DNA of 23,121 bases from Candidatus Sericytochromatia bacterium (GTDB lineage: Bacteria > Cyanobacteriota > Sericytochromatia > S15B-MN24 > UBA4093), in the NCBI GenBank assembly GCA_036676985.1, contig JAKFBU010000013.1, positions 1-23,121 of the forward strand. Direction: 5' to 3'. The notes under the pieces were generated by a model that did not search any database, was not told the DNA's origin, and saw only the letters and a list, made by a program, of their open reading frames with translations. The translations under genes were made by a program, and so were the position numbers. Positions 387 through 15,421 of the stretch are shown here, in pieces; position 1 is the stretch's first letter; the number at the start of each line of letters is the position of its first letter.

Positions 387-413
387 GTTTCGGCCGTCCT
401 GCGCCGAACTTTA
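387..413 (-). promoter_or_regulatory. Sigma28 (FliA/SigD) promoter of flagellin
   Basis: Minus strand reads TAAA(413-410)-N15-GCCGAAAC(394-387), against the consensus TAAA-N15-GCCGATAA. An AT-rich tract lies immediately upstream at 420-436. Confidence 0.88.
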
Positions 414-432: not shown

Positions 433-2811
433 TTATGCTGTTGTGACCGGCATCCGCATGGCAGCGAGCCGCTGCCGAGCCAGCGAAAGCCTGGGATTCA
501 GGCTCAGTGCCATCTGGTACATGGTCCGGGCGTCCTCCTCGTTTCCTCCCTGGGCGGCGCACTCGCCGATCAGGAAGTACGTGTCGGCGTTTTCGGGCTC
601 CTCCTCCCGCGCCTTCAAGAGGAACGAGAGGGCGGCCTCATGGAGGCCCTTCTGCTGGAGCAGCCGGCCCACCGAGAAGGCGAGGCCCGCAAGATCCAGA
701 TAGAGCATGGCCCCGATGGCCCGCTCCGCGTCCGCGTAGCGCTCGGCAAGGAGTAGGTGCTCGGTGGCGAGCGTCCAGACCTCGACGGCCCGCTGGCTCG
801 CGGCGTCGGTGGGCAGCTCCGTGCTGGCGCCGTCGAGCAAGGACAGGAAGGCTTCCAGGTACCGTGCGTCCTGGCCGTACGAATCGGTCGCTTCGGCACG
901 CGCCGCTTCGGCTTGTAGCGCCTCGCGGGCCTCCGCCAGATGACCGAGTCCCATCCGGGCGATGCCCAGCTGGACGCGTAGTCCTGGCAGGTTGGGGCTC
1001 AGGGCGAGCTCTCGCTCGAGCGCTTCTTGGGCCTCCTGGTAACGCCCGATGGTGAGGGCAGCCTGGCCGATCAGGTGACCGAGTTCCGGGGTGTTCGGGG
1101 CGACCTCGTCGGCCTTGCGCCACGCGGCGAGCGCCTCTTCGTACTGGCCCGTCTTGTAGCAGACGCTGCCCAGGTTGATCCAGGCGCGCTGGTAGTTCTC
1201 GTCCGCCTCGGCGGCCTGAGTCATGTACTCGAAGGCCTTGGCGAGGTTGCCCTCGTTCAGGTGCGAGACGCCGAGATTGGTCAGGATCTCGGGATCGGGG
1301 TACCCGCACTCCTCGAGGGCGCGCTCGAACTGCTGGCGGGCCTGGGTCCACTGCTCCTGGCGGGAGTAGATGGCCCCCAGGGCGCTCGAGGTCTTGCTCG
1401 TCGGGACCGTGGGGTCGTTGCCGGCGGCAAAGACGATGCCCGCGAACTGCCGGCACTCCTCGAAGCACTTGGTCGCCTCGTCGAGCCGGTCCAGGGCCAT
1501 CAGGATCTGGCCCTTGGTGAAGCGGACGTCGGGGTAGGTGGGGTAGATGGCGATCGCCTCGTCCGCCAGTTCGAGTCCTTTCTCGTACTGCTGGGTGTTG
1601 CGGTAGTGCTCCACCAGGCAGAAGTACAGGTTGGCGTAGTAGCCGGTCGAGTGCGCGGCCTTCTGCTCCTTGAGGAGGCTCAGGGCCTTCACGTAGTTCG
1701 TCTCGGCTTCCTCGGCCCGGTTCAGGAGCTTGTAGGTCTGGCCCAGGTTGAAGTAGACGTATGCGTACTCCGGCTCGCGCTTCTGCTGCTCGAGCAGGAT
1801 GGCGAGGTTGCGCTGGAACTTGTCGCGCTGGTCGAGGTACTGGTCCAAGTAGCCGCGGTGAATGATGTGGGCCGTGCAGGCGCTCTGGGGAAGTCCCGTC
1901 CGCTCGGCAGCCATCACGATCTGCTCGTGGATGATGCCCTCGTACCGCATGTCCGGGCGGTTCTGGAAGAGGCGGAAGATGAGCGCCAGCTGGCGATGAT
2001 GGCCGGCTTTGCCCACCAGGTTCTCGATGACCAGGCTGTAGCCGATGTTCCCGTCGTTCCGGACGGCCTTGCGGACCTCGTTGTGCCACTGGGCCGGGAC
2101 CGTCTCGTCGGCGTCCAGCACCAGGATCCACTGGCCGGTGGCATGCTTGAGCGATTCGTTTCGGGCCGTGGCGAAGTCCCCGGTCCAGGCGTGGTGGAAG
2201 ATCTTGGCGCCGTAGCGCTCGGCGATCTCGATCGTGCGATCGGTCGAGCCGGTGTCCACGATGATCATCTCGGTGACCAGGTCCTTGACGCTGGCGAGGC
2301 AGTCCTCGAGGAACTCCTCCTCGTTCTTGACGATCATGCAGAGGCTGATAGTGGGCTCGACGGGCTTGGCGAGTTTGACGACGTCCTCGAGCTCCGGCGG
2401 GATCGAGTCTCCGCTCGCGCGCTGCTTGCGCACGGTCTCGAGCTGGCTCTTCTTGGCGCTGGCATGCGTGGGGTCGAGCTCGAGCACCCGGCGGAAGAAC
2501 ACCTGGGCCACCGCGTACCACTCGAGCTTGAACATGAGGACGCCCATGGAATTGAGGGCGTCTGTCGAGTAGGGGTCGAGCTCGAGCGACTGGCGCAAGG
2601 CGATTAGCGCCTTGTCGTACTTCATCTGCTGGAAGAGGATGACGCCGAGCTGGGTGAAGAGCTTGGCGTCCTTTTGATCCAATTCGAGGGCTTTGAGGAG
2701 GTTGGCGGCAGCTCCCTCGAGGTCGCCCTTATCGTAGGCACGCTGTGCGTTTGCTACGGCTTGTTCGCGCGTGAGGGCGGCCGAGACCGATTTGACGATC
2801 TTGAGAGCCAT
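433..2811 (-). CDS. TPR-GT2-TPR glycosyltransferase, probable flagellin O-glycosyltransferase
   Basis: N-terminal TPRs, a central GT-A/GT2 domain (ISLCMIVKNEE, VDTGSTD, WTGDFATARN, LVLDADE, YEGIIHEQ, HRGY) and a long C-terminal TPR array. Adjacent to flagellin. RBS AAGGAAGG. Confidence 0.9.
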   Translation of the reverse strand: MALKIVKSVSAALTREQAVANAQRAYDKGDLEGAAANLLKALELDQKDAKLFTQLGVILFQQMKYDKALIALRQSLELDPYSTDALNSMGVLMFKLEWYAVAQVFFRRVLELDPTHASAKKSQLETVRKQRASGDSIPPELEDVVKLAKPVEPTISLCMIVKNEEEFLEDCLASVKDLVTEMIIVDTGSTDRTIEIAERYGAKIFHHAWTGDFATARNESLKHATGQWILVLDADETVPAQWHNEVRKAVRNDGNIGYSLVIENLVGKAGHHRQLALIFRLFQNRPDMRYEGIIHEQIVMAAERTGLPQSACTAHIIHRGYLDQYLDQRDKFQRNLAILLEQQKREPEYAYVYFNLGQTYKLLNRAEEAETNYVKALSLLKEQKAAHSTGYYANLYFCLVEHYRNTQQYEKGLELADEAIAIYPTYPDVRFTKGQILMALDRLDEATKCFEECRQFAGIVFAAGNDPTVPTSKTSSALGAIYSRQEQWTQARQQFERALEECGYPDPEILTNLGVSHLNEGNLAKAFEYMTQAAEADENYQRAWINLGSVCYKTGQYEEALAAWRKADEVAPNTPELGHLIGQAALTIGRYQEAQEALERELALSPNLPGLRVQLGIARMGLGHLAEAREALQAEAARAEATDSYGQDARYLEAFLSLLDGASTELPTDAASQRAVEVWTLATEHLLLAERYADAERAIGAMLYLDLAGLAFSVGRLLQQKGLHEAALSFLLKAREEEPENADTYFLIGECAAQGGNEEDARTMYQMALSLNPRLSLARQRLAAMRMPVTTA

Positions 2812-2899: not shown

Positions 2900-5800
2900 T
2901 CAAACATGCACGGATTGCCCCAACGCTGCGGCCCCTTGCCACCCGTCGACGGACAGATCGTCCAGCGTGCGCTTTCCGACCTTGCCCGCTCGTTGGGCGT
3001 CCCGCTCCTCCCCATGGGTCACGATGCAGTCCACCGCGGTGTAAAGCCGGGCGAGACCCGGCAGATCCAGGGCGTCCGGAACCAGGAGGAGATCGGGGCC
3101 ATCCTCGGGATCGAGGCCCGCCTCGGCCAGGGCGCCGGCAATCCTCTCGCCGGCATCCTCGGGCGTGACGCCCTGGCTCGGATCGAGCCAGAGAACGAGG
3201 CTCACGTCCGCGTCGGCCGGGAAGGCACGCGCGTAGCTGGTGACGACCTCCTGCCAGGAGGTGGAGCCCCACTGGGGGTGATGGAGGAAGGCGTAGCGGC
3301 GTCGATCCTCGAGCGGCAACGGCATCAGCCCCGCCTGAAACGGGTCGGAGAGCGCGAAGCGAGTCGGGGTGCGCATGCCGAGGATGCGCAGGCGCTCGAG
3401 GATCCGCTCGGCCATGTGCGCCCACGTGAAGCCGGACAGGATCCGGTCGCGTGCCCGCTTGCCGACCGCTTTGGCATGCGCGGGGTCGGCCACCACCGAT
3501 TGCATCAGCGTGATCAGGGCGTCGCCATCGGGCTCGGCCCACCAGTAGCCGACGGCGCTGGGGGGGAGGGACGACGGGGGGAGGGGGACCTCGCGCGCCG
3601 GAATCAGGAAGGCGGTCTCCGAGTCGCAGAAGTCCAGGCAGGCCCCGTATCCCGTCACGATGACCGGCAGGCTCGTTGCCATGGCCTCCGCGATGGGTAG
3701 GGCGAAGCCTTCCCCGCGATAGGGGTGGACCAGGCAATGGCATGCCGCGTAGAGGCCGGCAATCTCGGCATCGCTGAGCGGATCGTCCAGGTACTCGATT
3801 TCCGGAGCCAGTGGATTGGCCTGGATCTCGGCGATGCGGTCCTTTGCCGTCTGGCCCTTGTAGAAGGACTTGCCACCGAGGTCCTTGATGACCAGGCAGA
3901 CGTCGTCGGCCGCGGTGAAGGCCTTCACGTACGCCTCCAACAGGACGTCGATGCCCTTGCGCAGGATCGTGCCTCCGACGAAGAGGAACTTGAAGCGTTT
4001 CCGGGTCGCGAGGGGGTACTTGGGGGCGTCCGGGTGCAGGCGATCGGTGTCGACCCCGTTCGGGATCACGATGACCTTGTCGGCGGGAATGCCGCTGCGC
4101 AGATAGCCGTCGCGCACGTGGCTCGTGGGCACCCAGATCTCGTCCACCTGGTGCGTCATGGGCTCGACCCACTCGTGGGGAATGCCCCCGAACTCCCAGG
4201 GCTGGATCATCGCCCAGGCCCCCTCGGCGGGCGGTTCGAACTTGGGCGGCCACTGGTGACGCACGTGGACGTCCGCCGGACCTGTCAAAGGGGCGTTGGT
4301 GCGATCGGCGATCACCTGGAGCGAGGGGTCGACCTCGGGACCGAACTCATCGGCCTCGTAGGGGACGATCGAGAGCTCGAGACCCGACTCGGCGAGGCGC
4401 CGGCAAACTTCACGGTTGATGAGCGCCAGGGAGTGGCGGACGAATTGCGAGCCCTCCCAGACGAGCCGCAGGCCCTGCCTGGCCCGCACGTCGTGGTAGT
4501 GCCCGACGAGCTCGTCCAGGTAAGCGTCGAAGCCGCGTGGCGCCTGGATGGCTCGCTGCATCCGACCGAGCAGGCCTGGGTCGCGGACGAACTGGAAGAG
4601 CGCGCTGCCCAGCCCCGGGGCGTTGCGGGGATCGACCAAGTAGCCGGTCTTGCCCTCCTCGATGAAGTCGGGAATGCCGCCGATGCGGCTGCCGATGACC
4701 GGGCAGCGGGCCGCAAGGGCCTCGGCGACCACCAGGGGGGCGCAGTCTTCCCAGATGGAGGGGATCACGACCACGTCGACGCGCTTGAGTAGCTCGGGCA
4801 GTTGCTCGACGTCGTAGCGGCCATGGAACTTGACCAACCCCTTGGCGTCGATCTCATGCAGCATGTCCTCGTAGGCCTTGGGGCCGCTGCCGAACAGGTG
4901 CCCCTCGATCTGATCCCGGCCGAAGGACTGTAGCGCCCGGACGAGGACGTGTACCCCCTTCTGGGGCAGGAGGCTGCCGATGAAGCCGACCTTCAACGGG
5001 CGATCGAGTGCACCTTCGAGGGGGCGTCGCGAGCCCGCTTTCTCCCAGAGCCATTCCACCGTTTCCGGCTGCTGCTGGAGGACGTGGATCCGCGAGGCGT
5101 CATGCCCGCTGCCGGCGTAGAGCTCCTTGACCCGGTGGGAGACGGCGAGATGCCGATCGACCCAGCGGTTGAGCATCTGCCGTCCGCTGTCCGCGCGCAA
5201 GGCGTAGCCACCCGTCTGATCGGGCCGACCCACGCAGATGGCGCACTTGCTGCCGTCTTCCGAGGGGCCGCTGCAGAGTGTCAGGTCCTCCTGGAAGAGG
5301 TACATACGCGGGCAAATGGGCCAGTAGTTGTGGGAGGTGAAGACGCTCGGCACTCCGGCCTGCTTGATCTCGGCCGCGATGCCCGTCGAGAAGTTGAGCA
5401 GGCTGTGGTAGTGGACGATGTCCGGCCGCAGCTCGGCGACCAGCTGCGCGATGATCCGCCGCATCTGGGGATCATCGGCCTCGCGCTCCGGGTGCTCCAT
5501 GTCGTAGAAGATCGCCGGGCGGTTGTAGATGGCGAAGAGCTGGACGCCCTCCTCCTCGCTCGCCTCGACGTGATAGGCGGGCTTGTCCGGTCGATTCTGG
5601 GACGGGGTGTAGATCACCGTAATCCGGTGACCCCGCCGGACGAGCGCCTTGGCGATCTGCCGCGGCAAGATGGTGCCGCCGCCTTCCTCGGCCCAGCCGT
5701 ACATGGTGAAGAGGATATGCAACGGATGATCCGCCGGGATGACCTTGGGGGCCGGCGCGCTCGCCGCGACCGTCGAGAAGGCCTCCAGGGGGCGCGCAGT

Positions 5801-8800
5801 CACCGCGACCGTGGGCGGGAGCGTCGTGAGTTGCGGCACCATGCCAAGGCCGCTGTCGATGGCCAGGGCCCAGGCCTCCTTGTCCATGACCCCTTGCGCC
5901 CACCGGCTTTGGGCCGCGGTGTACAGGTCGGGGTGGTTCAGGACGACCCGCGCCTTGATGCGTTGATCCTTGGCGCGGTCTTGACCGTAGACGCTGGCGC
6001 CGTGGATGCGATAAAAGTTGGTCGCCGCCGGCACGTGGACCCCGCGATGTCCCTGCTTGCCGCAGCGGATCCAGAAGTCCCAGTCCTCGTACCCTTCATG
6101 CGTCGGGAAGCCGCCCACGTCCTCCCATGCCTGCCGTTTGAAGAGCGTGGCCATGGTCAGGTAATTGAAGCGCTGCAGGAGCTCGAAGCTGTAGGCGGGC
6201 GGCACGTCGAAGGCCGCCGTGTTGCCGAATTTCTGGACGTTGGGATAGGCGACCGAGGCCTCCGGATGGGCTTCGAGCGCCGCCACGCAGGCGGCGAGGT
6301 AGTTCGGGGGGAGCTTGTCGTCGGCGTCGAGCGTGACGATGTAGTGGCCGCTCGCCTGTTCGATGCCGCTGTTGCGCGCGCGCAGGTGTCCGCCGTTCTG
6401 CTGCGTGTGCAGGCGGATGGGGAACGTCGGGTAGTCGGCCATGAGGGCCTGCGCGACGTCGCGCGAATCGTCGGTGCTGCCGTCATCGACGATGATGACC
6501 TCGCACGCCGGATGGGTCTGGGCGAGGACGCTCTCCACCGCCGTGCGCAGGAAGCGACCGTAGTTGTAGCAGGGGATGATGACCGAGACGCGCGGTTCGC
6601 CCGGGGGGGGCGCCTCGTGGGGAATGGTCCCCTTGGTGATCTGGAAGTACCGTAGGCCCAGCGCCTGGGCAAGGTTGCGCTCGCGCGGACAGCCCGTGTC
6701 CAGCACGGCGGTGGCCGCTCGGAAGACGGAGACCCGTGCGCTCGACGGAGCGTCGATCAGGAGCACGTCGGGAATGGCATCCGGATCGTAGCCGTGCTCG
6801 GTGAGCCAGGCCAGGATCTGCTCTTGGCGCGTTTCGGCCGCGCCTTCCGGAACCCGGATCATGAGGCACAGGTCGAGGTTGGACGCGTAGTCCGCCAGGA
6901 CCGCCGCGAGGTTCGCTTCCCAGGCCTCGGGATCCGCCACGAGCCAGCGATCCCGGGCCGCGGTGGCGACGTCCAGGGCCGGAGCCTCCCAATCGGCCTC
7001 TTCCACGGAGGGGTGGCGCAGCGGCAGCGACTCGCCGCTCCATGCGGGCGGGAGCTCCGGCCGGGTCGTCGCGGCCCGCCGCAGGGCGTCGGCGTCGGCG
7101 TCGGGCAGGACGGTGCGACCCCGCTCCTCGGCAAGGCTCATTAGCGTCCGAGTCCCCGCTTGATCGCCAAGCGGGAGGAAGGCATGGGCGCTGAGCAACT
7201 GGGCCAGGAACACGGAGTTGAACTCCGCCGGGCGCACCTGCTGGATGTCGACGCTGGGCGTCAGGGCAGGGTCGAGTCCGAGGGAGGCGACGGCCTCCTC
7301 ATAGGCTAGGGCGATCTGCTGGGTCTGGGGGTCGCTGGTGCTCAGGACGACGAGGGGGTACGGGTCTTCCGGCTGGAAGGTGGTGAGGTACGACGCCATG
7401 GCGCGCCCCAGGGCGAGCGGGTCGAGCTCGTCGCCGGTGGCCGCGATGAAGGTGGCCGCCGTGGTCTCGGCAGGGACGTTGGCCTCGCTCGGCCAGCTGA
7501 CCTGGAAGAGCTCGATTTGCCGGGGATCTTGCCCGAGCACCGTGTAGTTGGCTTGTTCGGGTTTCGGCGCGATGCGGGCGACCTCGAGGTTGCTGGCGAT
7601 CGCCGCGAGCCCGAAGCGCTCGAGGGCCTTCTGGAGCACCTCCTGCCCGGCTTGACAGTCACCGCTCATCAGCAGGCTCACCCCCAGGTTGTTGTGGGCC
7701 TCGGGGAAGTCCGGCGCCAGTTCCAGGGCCGCTTCAAACTCAGGCACCGCCAGCCCCGGATCCGGCAGCTCGGCGCGCAGCATGAGGTTGCCCAGATCTA
7801 GGTGGGCCGAGGCACGCGCCGATACCTCGTCGGCACAGAAGGCGATCTCCGGATAGAGCTCGTCGATGGCATAGCGTTCGCGCATCTCGCGCCGCATGCG
7901 CCGCGCCTCCTCGCCGAGTCGGTCGTGGCGCTTGCTGGAGGTCGAGTGGCTCTCCTCGTGGGCGCGGTACTTGAGCAGCTTGTCCGGGAGCACCGCGAAG
8001 CGGCAGCGGGCCACGGCGGCCTTTAGCCAGAACTGGAAGTCGTGGGGCCAGCCGTACTCCTGCAGGCCGATGCGACGGAGGATGGAGCGCCGGAACATGG
8101 CCGTCGGGTTGGGGACCAGACAGCACCGGAACATCTGTCGGCCGAACAGCCGACGTTCGAATACGTCGTTGGCGATGGGTCGGATGATGCTGCCGCCGAG
8201 GTCTCGCCCCTCCGCGTCGATGTAGCTCGCGTCGTGGTAGATGACCTCGAGCGACGGATCAGCGAGAAAGGCCGTGACCTGGCGCGCGATTTTCTCCGGG
8301 TGCATGAGGTCGTCGCCGTTGGCGATGGCGATCAGGTCGCCCGTCGTGGCCTCCAGGCAGCGGTTGAAGGTCTCATGCAGCCGCGCTCGACCCTTGTTCG
8401 CTTGGTATTCATACCGTACGCGCGGATCGTGCAGGTACTTCGCGACCACCTCGCGGGTGCCGTCGGTCGAGCCATCGTCGAGGATGTACAGCTCGAAGGC
8501 CGTGTGGGTCTGCTTCAAGATGGCCTGGATGGCCTCGTCGAGGTAGTGGGCGTAGTTGTAGACGTAGGCGACGATGCTGACGCTGGGCAAGGGCCGCTCT
8601 ATCGGGAGGAGGCTCGGGTGTGCCGCTAGGAAGGCATCCTCCGCATCGGTCGTGCGCTGTCTTTCGAACTCGGTGGGAGGCAGGTATAGGGGGCTCCTGC
8701 CGAGGATGCCCTCCGCAATGCGATCGAGAGAGGCATGCCGCCCGGGGGCGAGCTCTTCGACGGACTGGTAGCGAAGCTCGCCGTGCGAGAAGTTCACAAC

Positions 8801-10168
8801 CTTCACCAGCGGGAAGGGGATGCTCAGACCGAAAAAGAGTCGAAATGCAGCACGGAGGGCGCGCCGACGGTATTCATCTGACGGAGCGGTAGAGAGGAGG
8901 TTCTCCAGGAAGGCGGGATAGGACTCTTTGCTGTCGAGATCCAGGGTGAAACCCCACCCCTGGTACATGGGACGTCCTACCACTCCGACGGGGATGCCCC
9001 GGCTTACGGCCGTTTCGAGCCCCACGGTCGAATTGTAGACCAGGGTCGCGGTCGACATGTCAATGAGCGTGTAGGAACTGACGTCGTCCTTGGGCCAGAC
9101 CACCGAGACGTTGGCAGGCAACTGGGCCAGCGTGCGCTCGTAGCGCTCCATCACCCGTCCGCTGCGACCCTGCATGTGGTCCTCGTTGGGGTGAATCCGA
9201 ACGATCAGGTGGTAATCGGGATGTTCGTCAAACCAGCGGATCGTATCGGCAACCCACTCGATCATTTCGGGGTAGGGCCCGCGCCAGTCGGCGGTCGATG
9301 CCTCGGACTGCGAGCTGGTGAAGAGGGTGACGATTTTCCGCCCGCTCGGGATGCCCAGCCGGGCCCTGGTGGCCTCGATCGGCTGTGGCGGCGGTGAAAA
9401 GGCGTGCCAGCTCAGCTCTTTTCCGTAGCGACGCTGCATGATGAGCCGGTAGGCGTCCTCGAGTTCGGCCTCGAGGAGGGGAACCGCCTGCCAGCGATCG
9501 CGACACTCGTCGAGGCGGGGCCGGGCCCAGATCGCCTGATTCTCCGCAAAGGTCAGCGACTCGGGCAACAGGCCCCGCTCATGGTGGATGACGCGCAGGC
9601 CGCGTTCCCGCGCGAGCTCGTTGGCAACGCGGTGGCTGAAGAAACTACCGTTGAGCATGGCGACGCAGTCAGGCTGGAACTCGTCGAGTTGGCGCGATAG
9701 GGACCGCATGGCGAGCGCTCCGCCGAAAAGGTAGTTCCGGAAGGTCTGGGCCTGCTCGCCTGATAGCTCGCCGAAATCCGGCTGCCGGTAGTGGGCAATG
9801 AGGGAGCTCTTGCACCATTCGCCGAGGGGACGGCCGTCGAACTGCGCCGTGAAGAGATCTACATCTGCCATCCCGGCAAGCCAGGCGCTGACCTCGCGGC
9901 GGTCCTCAGGGTTTACCCGATCGCTCAGCCAGGCATGCTCGAGGTGCAAATTCTCGAAGACCCTGCGTCCGAGTGCGTGGCAGGATTGGCAGCCTTGCTC
10001 GGTGCGGGTGCTGTTTCCCCAGAAGATGTCGCAAGCTGGGAAGAAGCTGTCGCAGCCGACGAAGCGAACCTCGGCCCCCCGGTGCCGGAGGGCGTGGGCA
10101 ATGGTCGCCTCCCAGTAGGTGTGAAGGTACCAGTCACCGGAGTAGGGAGAGTAGAACAGGATCTTCAA
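2900..10168 (-). CDS. Giant multidomain glycosyltransferase (KpsS/capsule-synthesis-like + GT2 + TPR + GT2 + GT4 + GT4, plus three degenerate GT-B lobes)
   Basis: Uninterrupted ORF. Likely start is TTG at 10168 (MKILFYSPY, GAGGT 6 nt upstream); the ORF track extends it to 10189. Motifs: RIHPNE / NSTVGLE / YQGWGFTLD; ILDDGSTD..NGDD; IVDDGSTD..LDADD; QKG..SIWEDCAPLVVAEA; RKG..YRGEGFALPIAEA. Confidence 0.9.
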   Translation of the reverse strand: MKILFYSPYSGDWYLHTYWEATIAHALRHRGAEVRFVGCDSFFPACDIFWGNSTRTEQGCQSCHALGRRVFENLHLEHAWLSDRVNPEDRREVSAWLAGMADVDLFTAQFDGRPLGEWCKSSLIAHYRQPDFGELSGEQAQTFRNYLFGGALAMRSLSRQLDEFQPDCVAMLNGSFFSHRVANELARERGLRVIHHERGLLPESLTFAENQAIWARPRLDECRDRWQAVPLLEAELEDAYRLIMQRRYGKELSWHAFSPPPQPIEATRARLGIPSGRKIVTLFTSSQSEASTADWRGPYPEMIEWVADTIRWFDEHPDYHLIVRIHPNEDHMQGRSGRVMERYERTLAQLPANVSVVWPKDDVSSYTLIDMSTATLVYNSTVGLETAVSRGIPVGVVGRPMYQGWGFTLDLDSKESYPAFLENLLSTAPSDEYRRRALRAAFRLFFGLSIPFPLVKVVNFSHGELRYQSVEELAPGRHASLDRIAEGILGRSPLYLPPTEFERQRTTDAEDAFLAAHPSLLPIERPLPSVSIVAYVYNYAHYLDEAIQAILKQTHTAFELYILDDGSTDGTREVVAKYLHDPRVRYEYQANKGRARLHETFNRCLEATTGDLIAIANGDDLMHPEKIARQVTAFLADPSLEVIYHDASYIDAEGRDLGGSIIRPIANDVFERRLFGRQMFRCCLVPNPTAMFRRSILRRIGLQEYGWPHDFQFWLKAAVARCRFAVLPDKLLKYRAHEESHSTSSKRHDRLGEEARRMRREMRERYAIDELYPEIAFCADEVSARASAHLDLGNLMLRAELPDPGLAVPEFEAALELAPDFPEAHNNLGVSLLMSGDCQAGQEVLQKALERFGLAAIASNLEVARIAPKPEQANYTVLGQDPRQIELFQVSWPSEANVPAETTAATFIAATGDELDPLALGRAMASYLTTFQPEDPYPLVVLSTSDPQTQQIALAYEEAVASLGLDPALTPSVDIQQVRPAEFNSVFLAQLLSAHAFLPLGDQAGTRTLMSLAEERGRTVLPDADADALRRAATTRPELPPAWSGESLPLRHPSVEEADWEAPALDVATAARDRWLVADPEAWEANLAAVLADYASNLDLCLMIRVPEGAAETRQEQILAWLTEHGYDPDAIPDVLLIDAPSSARVSVFRAATAVLDTGCPRERNLAQALGLRYFQITKGTIPHEAPPPGEPRVSVIIPCYNYGRFLRTAVESVLAQTHPACEVIIVDDGSTDDSRDVAQALMADYPTFPIRLHTQQNGGHLRARNSGIEQASGHYIVTLDADDKLPPNYLAACVAALEAHPEASVAYPNVQKFGNTAAFDVPPAYSFELLQRFNYLTMATLFKRQAWEDVGGFPTHEGYEDWDFWIRCGKQGHRGVHVPAATNFYRIHGASVYGQDRAKDQRIKARVVLNHPDLYTAAQSRWAQGVMDKEAWALAIDSGLGMVPQLTTLPPTVAVTARPLEAFSTVAASAPAPKVIPADHPLHILFTMYGWAEEGGGTILPRQIAKALVRRGHRITVIYTPSQNRPDKPAYHVEASEEEGVQLFAIYNRPAIFYDMEHPEREADDPQMRRIIAQLVAELRPDIVHYHSLLNFSTGIAAEIKQAGVPSVFTSHNYWPICPRMYLFQEDLTLCSGPSEDGSKCAICVGRPDQTGGYALRADSGRQMLNRWVDRHLAVSHRVKELYAGSGHDASRIHVLQQQPETVEWLWEKAGSRRPLEGALDRPLKVGFIGSLLPQKGVHVLVRALQSFGRDQIEGHLFGSGPKAYEDMLHEIDAKGLVKFHGRYDVEQLPELLKRVDVVVIPSIWEDCAPLVVAEALAARCPVIGSRIGGIPDFIEEGKTGYLVDPRNAPGLGSALFQFVRDPGLLGRMQRAIQAPRGFDAYLDELVGHYHDVRARQGLRLVWEGSQFVRHSLALINREVCRRLAESGLELSIVPYEADEFGPEVDPSLQVIADRTNAPLTGPADVHVRHQWPPKFEPPAEGAWAMIQPWEFGGIPHEWVEPMTHQVDEIWVPTSHVRDGYLRSGIPADKVIVIPNGVDTDRLHPDAPKYPLATRKRFKFLFVGGTILRKGIDVLLEAYVKAFTAADDVCLVIKDLGGKSFYKGQTAKDRIAEIQANPLAPEIEYLDDPLSDAEIAGLYAACHCLVHPYRGEGFALPIAEAMATSLPVIVTGYGACLDFCDSETAFLIPAREVPLPPSSLPPSAVGYWWAEPDGDALITLMQSVVADPAHAKAVGKRARDRILSGFTWAHMAERILERLRILGMRTPTRFALSDPFQAGLMPLPLEDRRRYAFLHHPQWGSTSWQEVVTSYARAFPADADVSLVLWLDPSQGVTPEDAGERIAGALAEAGLDPEDGPDLLLVPDALDLPGLARLYTAVDCIVTHGEERDAQRAGKVGKRTLDDLSVDGWQGAAALGQSVHV

Positions 10169-10258: not shown

Positions 10259-10933
10259 TCAAAGGATCCGACGCGCCGTCGCAAATGCCTCCGCCGCATG
10301 ACGACCTACCTTGCAGCCATGGTACAAGGCGGCGATTCTCACCGCCTCGACGGAGCGACTGTGCGGGGCCGGGCGCATCTCCGCGGCATAACATTCCAGG
10401 GCGACCACTAGCTGGTCCAGGTAGGCGGTGATATCGACGTAGGTGTCGGGCAGGAAGGGAGCGCCAATACTCGGGATGCTCCAGTCCGTGGCACTGGGCG
10501 TCTCGAAGCAGCGGATTTCCTCCACTCGCTCTCCAGGCTGGGGACGAAAGGCGGTCAAGGTCGCCTGACAGGCGATCCGGTGGTCCACGTTCAGGTCGCC
10601 CCCATGGTGGGTGTAGACAAGGTCGGGCTGGACCCGGGCCTTGGCTTGCTCGACCTTCTTCGCGATGTCGAGGAGAGGAACCGTGTCGAAGCTGTTGTCC
10701 GGAAAGGTCTCGAACCCCAGGATCGACGCACCCAGGAGGCGGGAGGCAGTCTCTGCCGCCTCCCGGCGCTCTCGAACGGCCTCCGGATTTACCGAGGTGC
10801 GAGAGCTGACCCCGTCGCCGAGGAACAACACTGAGACCGTGTCGCCCTCGGCGGCGTGTCGAGCCATCGTTCCGCCCATGCCGAGGACCTCATCATCGGG
10901 ATGGGCGGCGACGATCAAGATGTTGCGTGGCAT
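10259..10933 (-). CDS. PIG-L/LmbE family N-acetyl-sugar deacetylase
   Basis: Metal-binding motifs AHPDDE and THHGGDLNVDH, with C-terminal AEAF. Confidence 0.92.
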   Translation of the reverse strand: MPRNILIVAAHPDDEVLGMGGTMARHAAEGDTVSVLFLGDGVSSRTSVNPEAVRERREAAETASRLLGASILGFETFPDNSFDTVPLLDIAKKVEQAKARVQPDLVYTHHGGDLNVDHRIACQATLTAFRPQPGERVEEIRCFETPSATDWSIPSIGAPFLPDTYVDITAYLDQLVVALECYAAEMRPAPHSRSVEAVRIAALYHGCKVGRHAAEAFATARRIL

Positions 10934-10957
10934 GTTCTCTCGCTCTCTGGGGACGGG

Positions 10958-11680
10958 CTAAATCTGCTGCTTGAGCTGCTCGTACTTGTGGAAGACGCTG
11001 CCTTCCGCCAGGTACTTCTTCTGGCACACCGTCTCGAAGGTGGTGAAGCCATCCGTGTCGATGGAGTGGAACCACGCGTCCTCCTGCAGCTCCATCCGGT
11101 GAAGGCGTTCGAGGAATTCCTCGTTGATCCGATCCCGCGGAATGATGGCCACGCCGCTGTCGTCGCACACGGCGATCGTCCCGTCATACTTAGCCCGCAG
11201 CTCGGCCAGGAGCTCGGGGGACGGGCCGGATTCGTTCTTCACGTTGAAGCAGCCGACGGGCGTGCCGCCCTCGCTCCAGATCGCGTAGTTCTCCTTGCGC
11301 AGGGTGTGAACGTCCCGCACCAGCCCCATCATGACCACGGCGGCCACGTCCCGGTAGAGCATGAGGAACTTGGCCACCAGGGCCCCGAACACGGCGTAGT
11401 CTTTGCAGTCGATCGCGGCCACGATCAGGATCTCGCCCGGCTGGACGTCCTGGATCTGCTCGTGGAACTCCCAGTTGCTGCAGTTGTAGGCGTAGACGAG
11501 GCGTGTCGGTCCCACCCGGTGGTGTCCGTAATTCAGGGGCTGGACCTTCGGAATGGCGCCGGTCTTGCCGAGGCAGTCGGTGACCTCCGAGGTGCAGATG
11601 CGGTTGCGGCGGATGGTCTCGATCATCCGATCCTGCACAGATTGGGCAGCGATCCGTTTCTCTACGGTGGTCTCGGGCAT
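10958..11680 (-). CDS. RraA / HMG-CHA aldolase-like protein
   Basis: TSEVTDCLG, VQPGEILIV, AVFGALVA, GLVRD and AVCDDSGVAIIP fit the RraA-like fold. RBS AGGAGG. Confidence 0.8.
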   Translation of the reverse strand: MPETTVEKRIAAQSVQDRMIETIRRNRICTSEVTDCLGKTGAIPKVQPLNYGHHRVGPTRLVYAYNCSNWEFHEQIQDVQPGEILIVAAIDCKDYAVFGALVAKFLMLYRDVAAVVMMGLVRDVHTLRKENYAIWSEGGTPVGCFNVKNESGPSPELLAELRAKYDGTIAVCDDSGVAIIPRDRINEEFLERLHRMELQEDAWFHSIDTDGFTTFETVCQKKYLAEGSVFHKYEQLKQQI

Positions 11681-11688
11681 GGTGCCTC

Positions 11689-12504
11689 CTATCGGCGAGC
11701 GAGGGGTGCGGGAGAAGCGTTGAACAGCTCCAGGGCCGTCTGAGCCATGAGCTGCTCGATATCAGCAGCCGAGAAGTGGTGGGCCTCCAGGAACGCCAGG
11801 GTCTCGTCCCGGGAGTGCTGCATGGTCACGTAGGGGTGATCCGAACCGTACAGCCAGCGGTGCGCGCCGAGCTTGCGGATGGCGAAGGCGAAGTCCGTCT
11901 CGACGCTGCTGCCCCGCCAGAACGACACCGAAAAGGAGGTGTCGATGAGGAGATTCGGGGCGTCGAACGCCATGGACATCACCTCCAGGACCATGCGGCC
12001 TCCCCCGTGCAGGGCGATGAGCGGCGTCTTGACCGCTCGGGCAAGGGCACTCACCAGGCGCACGCCGCTCACGTCGAAGACCCGGAGCGTGCCGTAGCTG
12101 CAGCAGATTGCGCACCACAGGCCCCGGGCCCCCGCGTACTGGGCCACGCCGATGGCCGCGGGAAAGTCATGGTCTGCCAGGTTGAGCTCGTACGGGTGGA
12201 ACTTGATGCCGGCCATCCCGAGGGCAGCGGCCGCGTCGACTCGGTCGTAGGCGTCGGGGCGCCGGGGGTCGATCATGACCGTGGCCTTGAGGTCGGAGCG
12301 CTGGAGGCGAGCGGCCAGCGGGTGTCCCGGCTCGAGCAGGAAGTCGCTGTCGAGGAGCATGAGGTTTCCGGCTTCGATGCCGGTGGCCTGCAACTCGGAC
12401 TCGACGATACCGACGCGCTCGGGCGCGTCGAACCGCCTGAAATCCAGCTCGTTGGCAAGGTCGGGCTGGGGGGTGAGGTGGAGATTGAAGTCGACTAGGC
12501 GCAT
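11689..12504 (-). CDS. Amidohydrolase family protein (amidohydrolase_2-like TIM barrel)
   Basis: DFNLH (a variant of DxHxH), GIKFHP, LHGGG, IDTS and LYGSDHPY. Confidence 0.85.
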   Translation of the reverse strand: MRLVDFNLHLTPQPDLANELDFRRFDAPERVGIVESELQATGIEAGNLMLLDSDFLLEPGHPLAARLQRSDLKATVMIDPRRPDAYDRVDAAAALGMAGIKFHPYELNLADHDFPAAIGVAQYAGARGLWCAICCSYGTLRVFDVSGVRLVSALARAVKTPLIALHGGGRMVLEVMSMAFDAPNLLIDTSFSVSFWRGSSVETDFAFAIRKLGAHRWLYGSDHPYVTMQHSRDETLAFLEAHHFSAADIEQLMAQTALELFNASPAPLARR

Positions 12505-13145
12505 GGGGCTTTTCTCATGACGACCAGCATCTCGCGCTGGGGGATGGGGCGGTAGTCGTGGTGCAGCGAGACGAAGGGAGTCAGCTCGAAGGCCAGTTCG
12601 AGGATCTTGGCCGGCTCATAGTAGAAGACGAAGTCCTCTTTCGGGTAATCCGGCGTGAGCTCCGTGCTGAGCACGTCGAAGACCAGGGCTTCGTGGCACA
12701 GCTCGAAGGCCTTCGAGACTAGCGTCCGGGCATAGGTCCAGTTGTCCAGCTCCGACTGTTTGAAGTTGAGCAGCCCGAGCATGACGGCGACGTCGGCGGA
12801 AACCTGGTCGGGCTCCACCTGCAGCGGGCTCGCAACCAGGAAGCGCGCCTCCGGATACTTCTCGGCCGAGCGGGCGATGAAGTCGGGGTTGATGTCGAGG
12901 CCTGTGTAGGCGCTCGGCGTGAGGTTCGCCCGCTCGAGGGCCCCCAGGAGGTCGGCGAAGCCGCAGCCGATGTCCAGGACCGAGCGGCCTGCAAACGGGG
13001 TGCTCGCGAAGACCCGGGCGAATCGGTGCTCCTGCTGCTCCCGGCTGCCCCAGCCCAGGGTGCGGCAGGACTCGCCGTGGGACTGGTAGCGCTCCGAGTA
13101 GCGATGGACGGTCTGTTGATCGATGGCTTCGTAAGGGCTAGGCAT
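12495..13145 (-). CDS. Class I SAM-dependent methyltransferase
   Basis: Motif I SVLDIGCGFAD and motif II YTGLDIN. Overlaps both neighbours, suggesting translational coupling. Confidence 0.9.
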   Translation of the reverse strand: MPSPYEAIDQQTVHRYSERYQSHGESCRTLGWGSREQQEHRFARVFASTPFAGRSVLDIGCGFADLLGALERANLTPSAYTGLDINPDFIARSAEKYPEARFLVASPLQVEPDQVSADVAVMLGLLNFKQSELDNWTYARTLVSKAFELCHEALVFDVLSTELTPDYPKEDFVFYYEPAKILELAFELTPFVSLHHDYRPIPQREMLVVMRKAPCA

Positions 13146-15370: not shown

Positions 15371-15394
15371 ATTCATTCGCCTCCACTGGTAGTT

Positions 15395-15421
15395 ACATCG
15401 GCTTGATGAGGAGAACCTTAA
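15395..15421 (-). promoter_or_regulatory. Putative sigma28 promoter for the synthase/tailoring operon
   Basis: Minus strand reads TTAA(15421-15418)-N15-GCCGATGT(15402-15395), directly upstream of the RBS. Confidence 0.65.

What the first reader, a model, noticed from the sequence alone, without database searches (positions are those of the whole stretch)
2900..10168. ~2420-aa single-chain glycosyltransferase assembly line with five catalytic-looking modules
Seen, N to C: KpsS-like GT-B (~10168-8600), GT2 (~8587-7850), TPR pair (~7820-7610), two degenerate lobes (~7455-6640), GT2 (~6596-5900), GT4 (~5720-4485), GT4 (~4470-3385) and a third degenerate lobe (~3300-2900). No frameshift is present and no signal peptide or TM helix is evident. 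Known: GT2 enzymes invert and GT4 enzymes retain configuration; most characterised multi-GT fusions have 2-3 modules. Inference: the protein builds a defined oligosaccharide processively, and module order may be colinear with glycan order, with the capping transferase at the N-terminus.
Basis: partly seen in the sequence, partly recalled or inferred. Interest (0 to 1): 0.85.

Follow-up and report, generated by a model that had tools for sequence, protein, structure and literature searches.

The report
Giant five-module flagellin sugar-adding enzyme
One uninterrupted 2422-residue gene next to a flagellin gene joins five sugar-transferring enzyme domains and three leftover half-domains, and probably builds a complex sugar chain on the flagellum, so it is a real but uncharacterised variant of known multi-domain sugar transferases.

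Summary
One stop-free ORF (2900-10168, minus strand, 2422 aa) carries, N to C: a KpsC/KpsS-like GT-B domain, GT2, a short TPR, two truncated GT-B lobes, GT2, GT4, GT4 and a third truncated lobe. The metal-binding and catalytic motifs of the four classical modules are intact. An independent contig encodes an 84% identical protein of the same length, so an assembly chimera is unlikely.

The gene lies between a pseudaminic-acid (Pse) pathway and a GmaR-like TPR-GT2 gene plus a flagellin gene. The window has no transporter or lipid-carrier genes.

Best reading: a soluble flagellin-glycan builder. The N-terminal domain most likely transfers the CMP-activated Pse-type sugar. It has an HP motif aligned on KpsC, and relatives sit beside nonulosonic-acid genes in 4 of 5 foreign loci.

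Processivity, colinearity of module and glycan order, and "capping" are untested. Relatives swap whole cassettes at domain borders.

Such giants are common in sequence databases: 33 of 120 relatives have five or more modules. I found none characterised. I rate it a new variant of a known kind, of moderate interest.

The parts
2900..10168 (-). Whole gene: 2422-aa multi-module glycosyltransferase (stop codon at 2900-2902). An alternative upstream TTG lies at 10189.
   Evidence: Identical 2422-aa database record P0002 and the 84% identical 2422-aa P0003 from another contig.
8609..10168 (-). N-terminal domain, aa 1-520. GT-B fold, KpsC/KpsS-like (PF05159) C-lobe, R324-x-H326-P327 'HP' motif, H196-E197-R198 motif, four invariant Cys (39, 46, 60, 63). 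Proposed CMP-nonulosonate (Pse-type) transferase.
   Evidence: Pfam. Family of 4514 representative clusters. Alignment A1. AF2 model pLDDT 92.4. Foldseek hits are all GT-B, with KpsC TMt 0.54-0.55. Profile against KpsC E 9.7e-5 with HP aligned. Atlas: 28 of 30 hits in the PF05159 set.
7850..8587 (-). GT2 module a, aa 528-773 (DDGSTD 564-569, GDD 618-620).
   Evidence: PF00535 88 bits. Motifs and >=90% conservation of D619/D620 in 100 aligned homologous domains. Best PDB match is chondroitin synthase, 1.2e-17.
7610..7822 (-). Short TPR stretch, aa ~783-853 (about two repeats).
   Evidence: TPR_11 28.1 bits and TPR_17 24.7 bits are just above cut-off; other TPR models are below. Conserved at 31-38% identity in relatives that share the N-terminal cassette.
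7058..7462 (-). Lobe A, aa 903-1037: truncated Rossmann lobe with no catalytic motif. It always follows the N-GT-B/GT2/TPR block in relatives.
   Evidence: hmmsearch: 15 domain hits, at the same position in P0003, P0006, P0007, P0009, P0014, P0015, P0019 and P0122. hhalign against lobe B 98.2%, lobe C 98.5%, GT4b C-lobe 95.9%. AF2 pLDDT 85-94 with an alternating strand-helix pattern.
6641..7006 (-). Lobe B, aa 1055-1176: truncated GT4-type C-lobe.
   Evidence: Its profile hits lobe C (1.4e-16) and the GT4b C-lobe (1.4e-5). Pairwise z = 9.6 against lobe C. The AF2 model is poor here (pLDDT <50 over much of it).
5891..6598 (-). GT2 module b, aa 1191-1426 (DDGSTD 1228-1233, DADD 1281-1284).
   Evidence: PF00535 120 bits. 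D1283 is >=90% conserved in 168 aligned domains. Chondroitin synthase 7e-24.
4487..5719 (-). GT4 module a, aa 1484-1894 (both lobes; E1807 and E1816).
   Evidence: PF13439 69 bits plus PF00534 92 bits. E1807 and E1816 are >=90% conserved in 41 homologues. MshA-like PDB matches at 1e-13.
3368..4462 (-). GT4 module b, aa 1903-2267 (short N-lobe; E2153-x7-E2161).
   Evidence: PF00534 56 bits, GT4-conflict 40 bits. E2153 and E2161 are >=90% conserved in 160 homologues. PDB 6kih 1e-8.
2972..3295 (-). Lobe C, aa 2292-2399: truncated GT4-type C-lobe at the C-terminus.
   Evidence: Its profile hits lobe B (1.3e-12) and the GT4b C-lobe (3.6e-12). The GT4b C-lobe profile hits it at 1.7e-10.
433..2811 (-). 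Neighbouring 792-aa TPR-GT2-TPR protein of GmaR/SunS type. Proposed initiating, flagellin-directed transferase.
   Evidence: Pfam. Its GT2 domain aligns to residues 5-202 of the 204-residue GmaR crystal chain, E 4e-35, with the DxD motif (DADE) kept. SunS 3e-19.
1..303 (-). 5' part of a flagellin gene (first 101 codons; the rest lies outside the window).
   Evidence: Flagellin_N 107 bits.
387..413 (-). TAAA-N15-GCCGAAAC, resembling the sigma-28 (FliA) consensus, upstream of the flagellin start.
   Evidence: Read. The consensus is recalled, not tested.
10259..22804 (-). Upstream sugar pathway, in window order: PIG-L deacetylase, RraA-like, amidohydrolase, methyltransferase, ATP-grasp, NeuB/PseI-like, methyltransferase, aminotransferase (+ strand), PseG-like, formyltransferase-like, CMP-sugar cytidylyltransferase, PseC, PseB.
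   Evidence: Pfam and NCBIfam. PseB (528 bits vs 408) and PseC (513 vs 424) are above cut-off. PseG (135 vs 154) and PseI (247 vs 340) are below.

Best explanation
The gene encodes a soluble cytoplasmic enzyme with five active-looking glycosyltransferase modules on one chain. Together with the neighbouring GmaR-like TPR-GT2 protein, it builds a hetero-oligosaccharide on flagellin before export.

**Proposed division of labour (inferred)**
- The 792-aa GmaR-like protein recognises flagellin through its TPRs and puts the first sugar on Ser/Thr.
- The giant's two GT2 modules (inverting) and two GT4 modules (retaining) add up to four further sugars from NDP-sugars.
- The N-terminal KpsC/KpsS-like GT-B domain adds the locus-specific CMP-activated pseudaminic-acid derivative made by the upstream genes. 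This is most likely onto a sugar acceptor, so probably at or near the non-reducing end.
- The three truncated Rossmann lobes and the short TPR are non-catalytic spacers or docking elements.

**Evolution.** The protein arose by joining cassettes: [N-GT-B/GT2/TPR/lobe A] + lobe B + [GT2/GT4/GT4] + lobe C. These cassettes are exchanged as units among relatives.

**Shown:** domain content, intact motifs, homologies, neighbourhood.
**Inferred:** substrate, order of action, donor of each module.
For: **Architecture and intact motifs.**

**A real gene.** Independent 84% identical, 2422-aa relative P0003.

**Flagellar context.**
- A flagellin start lies 2.6 kb downstream on the same strand.
- The GT2 domain of the intervening gene matches the flagellin GlcNAc-transferase GmaR over the whole crystal construct, E 4e-35. 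GmaR's function is taken from passages of PMC9638930.
- PseB and PseC are above the NCBIfam cut-offs. PseG-like, NeuB/PseI-like and cytidylyltransferase genes lie upstream.
- None of the 15 neighbouring ORFs scanned has a transporter, polyprenyl-phosphate transferase, Wzx/Wzy or Maf domain.
- The giant has no TM-like segment.

**N-terminal domain as nonulosonate transferase.**
- PF05159 hit.
- The family profile aligns R-x-HP-N on the KpsC HP motif, E 9.7e-5.
- The HP motif binds CMP-Neu5Ac in sialyltransferases (PMC2169525 passages).
- The KpsC homologue KpsS1 is a proven retaining Pse transferase, GT118 (PMC12887879 passages).
- PF05159 genes sit next to nonulosonic-acid modules (PMC4487303 passages).
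- Of 5 foreign loci with an N-domain homologue that I annotated (L001, L002, L004, L005, L006), 4 carry a CMP-nonulosonate-type cytidylyltransferase nearby and 3 of those also NeuB.

**Cassette evolution.**
- P0003 is 47-65% identical over aa 1-500 but 79-99% over the rest.
- P0004 shares only aa ~1500-2422, at 85-96%.
- P0122 (1046 aa) is the free N-terminal cassette.

**Conserved partnership (indirect).** 6 of the 22 closest ~790-aa relatives of the GmaR-like protein report the same longest-contig length as a giant-GT homologue.
Against: - No glycan or expression data exist.
- Only 101 codons of the flagellin are in the window, so no Ser/Thr-rich surface domain could be inspected.
- The N-domain family is not flagellum-specific. 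L005 is a cyanobacterial plasmid cluster with ABC-transporter genes. L006 is an O-antigen cluster with Wzz and O-antigen ligase.
- L002 has no NeuB or cytidylyltransferase on its 10.8-kb contig.
- The Pfam match covers only profile positions 182-278 of 310.
- NCBIfam gives nothing for the N-domain.
- Single-sequence matches to KpsC are not significant (E 0.17).
- In Foldseek the top-ranked hits are generic GT-B enzymes (CalG3 etc.). KpsC first appears at rank 29, though with the best TMt among the rows shown.
- The catalytic nucleophile and base of the KpsC/WbbB mechanism were not located.
- PseG-like and PseI-like scores are below NCBIfam cut-offs, so the nonulosonic acid may not be Pse itself.
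- The genomic contexts of the close relatives (P0003-P0015) could not be fetched.
Confidence: 0.55

Rival explanations
1. The actors are the same but the order is reversed. The N-terminal domain is the protein O-transferase that links the Pse-type sugar directly to flagellin Ser/Thr, functionally like Maf or FlmG. The other modules and the neighbouring GT2 then extend from it.
For: - No Maf (PF01973) domain is found in the giant or in the 15 neighbouring ORFs scanned, so another enzyme must handle the CMP-sugar.
- FlmG is likewise a TPR plus GT-B enzyme that puts Pse or Leg on flagellin (PMC7591256 passages; preprint 10.1101/2022.03.25.485807 passages).
- The giant has a TPR stretch that could bind flagellin.
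- From recall, not checked here: in Aeromonas hydrophila AH-3 a Pse derivative is the linking sugar of a heptasaccharide.
Against: - The characterised PF05159-type enzymes named in the papers I read (KpsC, KpsS, WbbB GT99, KpsS1) act on lipid or sugar acceptors, not proteins.
- A dedicated GmaR-like, protein-directed GT2-TPR enzyme sits next door.
- N-domain homologues occur in a non-flagellar plasmid cluster and in an O-antigen cluster.
- The FlmG sequence was not on hand, so homology to it was not tested.
Confidence: 0.2
2. The protein makes a non-flagellar glycan, such as a capsule, exopolysaccharide, LPS side chain or the glycan of another protein. Its place beside flagellin is coincidental.
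For: - The GT2/GT4/GT4 block recurs in many giant TPR/methyltransferase/GT proteins from sources labelled Verrucomicrobiota, Desulfobacterales, Chloroflexota and others.
- N-domain homologues lie in clusters with ABC transporters (L005) or O-antigen genes (L006).
- Multi-module polymerases of capsules and O-antigens are the known precedent. The WbbB passage is in PMC12887879. Chondroitin synthase is the best PDB match of both GT2 modules.
Against: - No export, lipid-carrier priming, polymerase or ligase gene occurs among the 15 ORFs of the 23-kb window.
- The gene order Pse pathway, giant GT, GmaR-like GT, flagellin on one strand is that of a flagellin glycosylation island.
- The GmaR-like partner appears to travel with different giant GTs (6 of 22; indirect).
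Confidence: 0.15
3. Only some of the five modules are active. The protein is largely a scaffold with one to three working transferases.
For: - Three lobes are demonstrably truncated, motif-less remnants of GT4 C-lobes, so domain decay has occurred in this lineage.
- GT4b has a shortened N-lobe: Glyco_transf_4 matches only profile positions 115-170.
- The two conserved glutamates of GT4a are spaced by 8 residues, not 7.
Against: - All four classical modules keep the DxD or paired-Glu motifs, and these residues are >=90% conserved across 41-168 aligned homologous domains.
- The modules stay 87-99% identical between P0002 and P0003 while the N-domain diverged. This suggests purifying selection on all of them, though no dN/dS was computed.
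Confidence: 0.08
4. The ORF is an assembly chimera or a fusion artefact of neighbouring genes.
For: The source looks like a 23-kb metagenome-type contig. Relatives are mosaic, which mis-assembly across related strains could mimic.
Against: - P0003, from a different contig (15,039 nt), has the same length and domain order at 84% identity.
- Mosaic breakpoints fall at domain borders, and P0004 and P0005 are full-length proteins with other N-terminal halves.
- There is no frameshift or stop.
- Read mapping could not be done.
Confidence: 0.02

Closest known systems
WbbB of Raoultella terrigena / Klebsiella O12 (O-antigen polymerase-terminator)
   Same: It is one chain with an N-terminal KpsC-related ulosonic-acid transferase followed by further GT modules. 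In WbbB the GT99 domain adds a single beta-Kdo to the non-reducing end and terminates the chain (PMC12887879 passage).
   Different: WbbB has three GT modules and, from recall, a coiled-coil ruler. It uses CMP-Kdo, works on a lipid-linked O-antigen and feeds an ABC transporter. Here there are five modules plus three dead lobes, no transporter genes in the window, and a flagellin context. The donor is probably a Pse-type sugar. No coiled coil was looked for.
KpsC/KpsS (GT107), WbbB-GT99 and KpsS1 (GT118): retaining CMP-ulosonic-acid transferases, Pfam PF05159
   Same: The N-domain has a GT-B fold. Its C-lobe matches PF05159 and the HP motif aligns on KpsC. KpsS1 is a retaining Pse5Ac7Ac transferase. 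The N-domain gene also sits beside nonulosonic-acid genes, as PF05159 genes do.
   Different: - The N-domain is ~515 aa (KpsC modules are ~320 aa).
- It has an invariant Cys4 cluster in the N-lobe and an HERG motif.
- Only about a third of the Pfam profile is matched, and pairwise similarity to KpsC is insignificant.
- It forms its own large family: 614 representative clusters at E <= 1e-30, usually fused to a GT2 (20 of 37).
- Similarity to KpsS1 itself was not tested because no sequence was on hand.
GmaR of Listeria monocytogenes (flagellin O-GlcNAc transferase, GT2 + TPR) and SunS (peptide S-glycosyltransferase)
   Same: The neighbouring 792-aa protein has the same GT2 domain (E 4e-35 over the whole GmaR construct, DxD kept) joined to TPRs, and it is encoded next to flagellin.
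   Different: It has TPRs on both sides of the GT2 domain. No MogR-type antirepressor function can be inferred. The sugar it transfers is unknown. It applies to the neighbour, not the giant: the listed PDB matches of the giant's GT2a and GT2b include neither GmaR nor SunS.
Maf (PF01973) and FlmG flagellin nonulosonic-acid transferases
   Same: They serve the same biological task: putting Pse or Leg on flagellin in the cytoplasm. FlmG is TPR + GT-B with the donor specificity in the GT-B domain. The diverged N-domain of P0003 recalls FlmG domain swaps that change the donor.
   Different: No Maf domain is present. Per the paper, the FlmG GT region is aa 309-596, about half the size of the N-domain. 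Homology was not tested.
Two-module polymerases such as chondroitin polymerase K4CP (PDB 2z86/2z87)
   Same: Both GT2 modules have it as their best solved relative (1.2e-17 and 7e-24). Several GT modules sit on one chain acting on one growing glycan.
   Different: K4CP makes a repeating polymer with two modules. Here there are five unlike modules, which suggests a defined hetero-oligosaccharide or a complex repeat.

Membership tests
GT2 (GT-A fold, Pfam PF00535), modules a and b | Significant PF00535 match above the gathering score | tested here: met
   88.2 bits (module a) and 120 bits (module b) against a cut-off of 23.3.
GT2 (GT-A fold, Pfam PF00535), modules a and b | Nucleotide-binding DDGS-type motif and DxD metal motif present | tested here: met
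   DDGSTD at 564-569 and 1228-1233; GDD at 618-620 and DADD at 1281-1284. D619, D620 and D1283 are >=90% conserved in 100 and 168 aligned domains. The motif definitions are recalled.
GT4 (GT-B fold, Pfam PF13439 + PF00534), modules a and b | Both lobes matched above the gathering score | tested here: met
   Module a: PF13439 69 bits and PF00534 92 bits. Module b: PF00534 56 bits and PF13439 33.8 bits, the latter on profile positions 115-170 only, so its N-lobe is short.
GT4 (GT-B fold, Pfam PF13439 + PF00534), modules a and b | Paired glutamates of the E-x7-E motif | tested here: met
   Module b: E2153-x7-E2161. Module a: E1807 and E1816, spaced by 8 residues. All four are >=90% conserved. The motif definition is recalled.
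KpsC/KpsS-type retaining ulosonic-acid transferases (PF05159; CAZy GT107/GT99/GT118) | PF05159 match | tested here: met
   47 bits against a cut-off of 20, but only profile positions 182-278 of 310 (C-lobe). 28 of 30 Atlas neighbour clusters share the PF05159 set.
KpsC/KpsS-type retaining ulosonic-acid transferases (PF05159; CAZy GT107/GT99/GT118) | GT-B fold resembling KpsC/WbbB | tested here: inconclusive
   The model is confident (pLDDT 92.4) and all listed Foldseek hits are GT-B. KpsC has TMt 0.54-0.55, the best among the rows shown, but it ranks 29th or lower by E-value behind generic GT1-type enzymes.
KpsC/KpsS-type retaining ulosonic-acid transferases (PF05159; CAZy GT107/GT99/GT118) | HP motif (CMP-sugar binding) in register with KpsC | tested here: met
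   The family profile aligns RvHPn on KpsC KVHPD (E 9.7e-5). R324, H326 and P327 are invariant or nearly so in 30 sequences.
KpsC/KpsS-type retaining ulosonic-acid transferases (PF05159; CAZy GT107/GT99/GT118) | Asp nucleophile and Glu general base of the double-displacement mechanism | not tested
   The region holding KpsC D160 lies outside the aligned stretch. Candidates are E289 in the SSxxE stretch and E197, but no structural superposition was possible with the tools.
KpsC/KpsS-type retaining ulosonic-acid transferases (PF05159; CAZy GT107/GT99/GT118) | Uses a CMP-activated ulosonic or nonulosonic acid | not testable with these tools
   Only guilt by association: a cytidylyltransferase lies near the homologue in 4 of 5 foreign loci, plus this window.
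GmaR-type flagellin GT2-TPR transferase (neighbouring 792-aa gene) | GT2 domain homologous to GmaR, joined to TPRs, encoded with flagellin | tested here: met
   E 4e-35 over GmaR residues 5-202 of 204. TPR families score 100-166 bits. The flagellin start lies 130 nt downstream.
Maf (MAF_flag10, PF01973) flagellin nonulosonic-acid transferases | PF01973 domain | tested here: not met
   There is no PF01973 hit in the giant (E <= 0.1) or in the 15 neighbouring ORFs (E <= 0.001).
WbbB-like polymerase-terminator | N-terminal ulosonic-acid transferase followed by polymerising GT modules on one chain, with a chain-terminating function and a coiled-coil ruler | tested here: inconclusive
   The domain order is analogous. 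The terminating function cannot be tested, and a coiled coil was not searched for.

The most novel reading that the evidence does not exclude
The protein is a self-contained, template-free 'glycan assembly line'. Cassettes are exchanged at domain borders, much as NRPS/PKS modules are. The N-terminal Cys4-containing KpsC-like domain defines a large, undescribed family of CMP-nonulosonate transferases. This family sets the terminal (or linking) sialic-acid-like sugar, so swapping that one cassette (as between P0002 and P0003) re-codes the flagellar surface. The dead half-lobes act as the docking or spacing elements that hand the growing glycan, still attached to flagellin, from module to module.
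Probability: 0.2. Interest if true: 0.8.

Novelty: new variant of a known kind. Interest (0 to 1): 0.55.

Why it matters
Flagellin glycans affect filament assembly, motility, phage adsorption and immune recognition. The enzymes that build the longer flagellin glycans are mostly unassigned.

If this reading is right, three things follow:
- A single gene plus a GmaR-like partner would encode a whole multi-sugar pathway that could be reconstituted and dissected module by module.
- The ~515-aa N-terminal domain would point to a populous family of candidate pseudaminic/legionaminic-acid transferases (4514 representative clusters at E <= 0.001) for which I found no functional description. Such enzymes are sought for glyco-engineering.
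- The sharp cassette boundaries among relatives offer a natural experiment on how glycan structures diversify.

If it is only another uncharacterised multi-domain GT for a polysaccharide, the interest is modest.

Tried and rejected
- **Names and accessions of family members.** No source names or accessions were obtained.
- **The search for related loci.**
  - The 30- and 8-sequence N-domain alignments were rejected as too divergent.
  - A 4-sequence alignment worked but found only 3 loci. L001 and L003 have near-identical ORF layouts, and only L001 and L002 were Pfam-scanned.
The contigs of the close relatives P0003-P0015 could not be inspected.
- **BLASTP of the protein against itself** printed no off-diagonal hits. 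Internal repeats showed up only with Smith-Waterman plus shuffles and with profiles.
- **Circularity caveat.** The iterated lobe B and lobe C profiles include true GT4 C-lobes, so their very high hhalign scores against GT4b are partly circular. The independent evidence is the one-round hmmsearch hits and the lobe A profile of 15 sequences.
- **AF2 model of aa 890-1190.** It used only a 10-row alignment. Lobe A was confident and lobe B was not. Foldseek against PDB gave 0 matches at E <= 0.001. The best were Rossmann lobes of OGT and other GT-B enzymes at about 2e-3, which is weak.
- **Plasmid search.** tblastn with the N-domain gave 4 records. The fourth (Shinella, 33% coverage) was not examined.
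- **NCBIfam** has no model for the N-domain.
- **Sigma-70 promoter and terminator scan of 1-11000.** 0 promoters and 4 terminator-like sites, against 5.3 +/- 2.3 in shuffles, so it is uninformative.
- **Literature.** I searched 'flagellin + KpsS + nonulosonic + glycosyltransferase' (1 paper, a general review seen in the listing only), 'flagellin glycosylation/multidomain/TPR/GT2/GT4' and 'GT118/pseudaminyltransferase'. None of the listed titles or abstract openings concerned a giant flagellin GT of this kind. The Walklett 2024 KpsS1 paper itself was not in the library, and I saw only its citation.
- **Not used or not determined.** Complex prediction was not used: the chains exceed its size limit and only 101 flagellin residues are available. 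The organism was not determined. Named relatives of the 792-aa protein at 42-44% identity are labelled Sericytochromatia/cyanobacterial MAGs, which is only a lead.

Full report

Yes. The window has a single stop-free frame on the minus strand from 10189 to 2900, 2429 codons from a TTG. No other ORF exceeds 792 aa.

A database record identical to the window's protein has exactly 2422 residues (P0002). I use 10168-2900. The translation has no internal stop.

Pfam on the whole chain and on eight segments gives the following:

| Region (aa) | Pfam result |
|---|---|
| 314-414 | Capsule_synth PF05159, 47 bits (cut-off 20) |
| ~531-700 | GT2 PF00535, 88 bits |
| ~788-852 | TPR, marginal: two of nine models just above cut-off |
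| 905-1190 | nothing |
| 1195-1326 | GT2, 120 bits |
| 1496-1872 | GT4, both lobes |
| ~1990-2258 | GT4 |
| 2290-2422 | nothing |

The highest 19-residue hydropathy mean is 1.6, inside a Rossmann core, so I see no membrane segment.

**2. The three 'degenerate lobes'**

- Smith-Waterman scores against 100 shuffles link lobe B (1041-1190) to lobe C (2290-2422) at z = 9.6. They link lobe C to the C-lobe of the second GT4 at z = 5.6.
The lobe C profile hits lobe B (1.3e-12) and GT4b (3.6e-12). The GT4b C-lobe profile hits lobe C (1.7e-10).
- Lobe A (903-1037) has only 15 relatives. Its profile matches lobe B, lobe C and the GT4b C-lobe by hhalign at 98.2%, 98.5% and 95.9% probability.
- All matches cover the first ~100-120 residues of the GT4 C-lobe and stop before the paired-glutamate region. 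The lobes are therefore truncated, motif-less remnants.
- An AF2 model of aa 890-1190 from a thin 10-row alignment gives lobe A pLDDT 85-94 with an alternating strand-helix pattern. Lobe B is modelled poorly.
- Foldseek on that model is weak: 0 hits at E <= 0.001, and the best are Rossmann lobes of OGT at ~2e-3.

**3. Do the five modules look active?**

- GT2a has DDGSTD (564-569) and GDD (618-620).
- GT2b has DDGSTD (1228-1233) and DADD (1281-1284).
- GT4a has E1807 and E1816.
- GT4b has E2153-x7-E2161.
- These residues are >=90% conserved in the 41-168 homologous domains aligned.

Solved relatives are generic. Chondroitin synthase is the best match for both GT2 modules. MshA-like proteins match GT4a, and a sucrose-phosphate-synthase-like protein matches GT4b.

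**4. The N-terminal domain**

*Family.* An exhaustive HMMER search found 4514 representative clusters at E <= 0.001 and 614 at E <= 1e-30. They match over the full ~515 residues, both as free ~520-aa proteins and as fusions.

*Conserved residues.* A 30-sequence alignment shows invariant C39, C46, C60 and C63. I infer that these form a metal site. It also shows H196-E197-R198, R324-x-H326-P327 and S380.

*Fold.* AF2 gives a confident two-lobe model (pLDDT 92.4, pTM 0.91). Every listed Foldseek match is a GT-B enzyme. KpsC entries have the best target-normalised TM-scores shown (0.54-0.55) but rank behind generic GT1-type enzymes by E-value.

*KpsC link.* The family profile finds KpsC in the PDB at 9.7e-5 and puts R-v-H-P-n on KpsC K-V-H-P-D. 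The single sequence does not reach significance (0.17).

*Papers (passages read).*
- The HP motif binds CMP-Neu5Ac in bacterial sialyltransferases (PMC2169525).
- KpsC, KpsS and WbbB-GT99 are retaining CMP-Kdo transferases. The KpsC homologue KpsS1 of Acinetobacter is a retaining Pse5Ac7Ac transferase, GT118 (PMC12887879).
- PF05159 genes in Acinetobacter and other bacteria sit next to nonulosonic-acid modules (PMC4487303).

*Neighbourhoods of N-domain homologues I could reach.*

| Locus | Source | Nearby genes |
|---|---|---|
| L001 | Neomarinimicrobiota MAG | NeuB, cytidylyltransferase, PIG-L |
| L004 | Azospirillum thermophilum plasmid | neuB, acylneuraminate cytidylyltransferase, HisH/HisF-type amidotransferase set |
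| L005 | Synechococcus sp. NIES-970 plasmid | DegT, cytidylyltransferase, GT28, formyltransferase, LmbE, NeuB; the same set as this window |
| L006 | Legionella adelaidensis plasmid | cytidylyltransferase, Wzz, O-antigen ligase |
| L002 | Nitrospirales MAG | neither NeuB nor cytidylyltransferase on 10.8 kb |

So 4 of 5 loci have the cytidylyltransferase and 3 of those also NeuB.

*Partner domain.* Among 37 multi-domain family members scanned (of the 150 listed), 27 carry a GT2. In 20 of them the best GT2 stretch begins within ~80 residues after the N-domain. N-domain plus GT2 is therefore a recurrent pair.

**5. Surroundings**

All but one of the 15 neighbouring ORFs are on the minus strand. 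In transcription order they are:
- PseB (528 bits, cut-off 408) and PseC (513 bits, cut-off 424)
- a CMP-sugar cytidylyltransferase
- a formyltransferase-like protein, standing where I recall PseH acetyltransferase usually stands
- a PseG-like protein (135 bits, cut-off 154)
- a class I aminotransferase (plus strand)
- a methyltransferase
- a NeuB/PseI-like synthase (below both cut-offs)
- ATP-grasp ligase, methyltransferase, amidohydrolase, RraA-like protein and PIG-L deacetylase
- the giant
- a 792-aa TPR-GT2-TPR protein
- the first 101 codons of a flagellin

The GT2 domain of the 792-aa protein aligns with the whole crystallised GT domain of Listeria GmaR (residues 5-202 of 204, E 4e-35, DADE kept). 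It matches SunS more weakly. GmaR transfers GlcNAc to flagellin and has a TPR domain proposed to bind it (PMC9638930 passages).

The window has no transporter, lipid-carrier transferase, Wzx/Wzy, ligase or Maf domain. A TAAA-N15-GCCGAAAC box resembling the sigma-28 consensus (recalled) precedes the flagellin start.

**6. Relatives and evolution**

The word-indexed search returned 146 proteins of 1332-4239 aa.
- P0003 comes from another contig. It has the same length and order at 84% identity, which argues against a chimera.
- Identity along the chain is mosaic. P0003 is 47-65% identical over aa 1-500 and 79-99% afterwards. P0004 and P0005 share only aa ~1500-2422 at 80-96% (apart from the last ~120 residues of P0005) and have different N-terminal halves.
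- The block N-domain/GT2a/TPR/lobe A recurs at the same coordinates in P0006, P0007, P0009, P0014, P0015 and P0019. It recurs, displaced by an insertion, in P0020. It exists alone as the 1046-aa P0122.
- The block GT2b/GT4a/GT4b recurs in many other giants.
- With ad-hoc HMMs, 33 of the 120 listed relatives have five or more catalytic-looking modules, up to eight. The architecture is unusual among characterised enzymes but not in sequence space.
- The ~790-aa GmaR-like protein has many full-length relatives. Six of the 22 closest report the same longest-contig length as a giant-GT homologue (17474, 21694, 18557, 24734, 13270, 21747). This suggests, indirectly, that a conserved initiator travels with variable giants.

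**7. Mechanism**

Most likely (0.55): a cytoplasmic flagellin-glycan pathway.
- The GmaR-like enzyme primes Ser/Thr.
- The four NDP-sugar modules extend the chain, two inverting and two retaining by family rule.
- The N-domain adds the CMP-activated Pse-type sugar.

By analogy with WbbB, where the N-terminal GT99 domain caps the chain, and with KpsS1, which acts on a sugar acceptor, I favour a terminal or side-branch position. This is inference.

Rivals:
- The N-domain links the Pse-type sugar directly to flagellin, like Maf or FlmG (0.2).
- The product is a non-flagellar glycan (0.15).
- Only some modules are active (0.08).
- The ORF is an assembly artefact (0.02).

Processivity and colinearity of module and glycan order have no computational support either way.

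**8. Novelty and verdict**

My literature searches found papers on FlmG, Maf, GmaR, KpsS1 and WbbB. None described a giant flagellin-associated GT of this build or the ~515-aa Cys4 N-domain family. The library lacks most subscription journals, so this is not proof of absence.

I class the finding as a new variant of a known kind: multi-module glycosyltransferases and flagellin glycosylation islands. Interest is moderate (0.55). The most valuable leads are the N-domain family as candidate nonulosonic-acid transferases and the cassette exchange among relatives.

Noticed in passing
window 387-413 (-): TAAA-N15-GCCGAAAC lies upstream of the flagellin start codon (303) and resembles the sigma-28/FliA promoter consensus (recalled). 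Flagellin would then be transcribed separately from the glycosyltransferase genes.
   Followed up: partly
window 19168-19887 (-), and L005 4084-4782: A formyltransferase-like gene sits among the Pse genes, where I recall a PseH acetyltransferase usually stands. This hints at an N-formylated Pse-type sugar. The same gene set (DegT, cytidylyltransferase, GT28/PseG, formyltransferase, LmbE/PIG-L, NeuB) lies beside an N-domain homologue on a Synechococcus sp. NIES-970 plasmid.
   Followed up: partly
window 10958-14436 (-), 15768-16739 (-) and 17025-18179 (+): The locus holds RraA-like aldolase, amidohydrolase, two methyltransferases, an ATP-grasp ligase with an L-amino-acid-ligase C-terminal domain, and a class I aminotransferase. 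Together they suggest heavy tailoring of the sugar, for example an amino-acid amide or methylation. No known pathway was matched.
   Followed up: no
window 8609-10168 (-), aa 39, 46, 60, 63: Four cysteines are invariant in all 30 aligned family members, in a low-complexity loop of the N-lobe (model pLDDT 72-82 there). They may form a structural metal site, which I do not recall being described for KpsC, KpsS or WbbB.
   Followed up: partly
window 433-2811 (-) and relatives P0270, P0275, P0276, P0279, P0286, P0289: Six of the 22 closest ~790-aa relatives of the GmaR-like protein share their longest-contig length with different giant-GT homologues (P0061, P0048, P0014, P0046, P0055, P0009). This suggests a conserved initiator paired with variable giants.
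   Followed up: partly
window 20593-21999 (-) and 14330-15514 (-): The mechanical ORF calls for PseC and the NeuB-like gene start too far upstream. Family matches begin at residues 86 and 68, and the ORFs overlap the preceding genes by 233 and 107 nt. The true starts are probably internal.
   Followed up: no
window 4949-6655 (+), 3725-4792 (+) and 2754-4253 (-): Long ORFs of 355-568 aa overlap the giant gene: two on the opposite strand and one in another frame of the same strand. They are expected in 67-70% G+C coding DNA and are not genes.
   Followed up: no
L006 (Legionella adelaidensis plasmid NZ_LR134429.1, 2573-4204): A distant N-domain homologue (19% identity over 78% of the query), annotated as hypothetical, lies in an O-antigen-type cluster with a cytidylyltransferase, Wzz and O-antigen ligase. 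It is a candidate nonulosonic-acid transferase of an LPS pathway.
   Followed up: no
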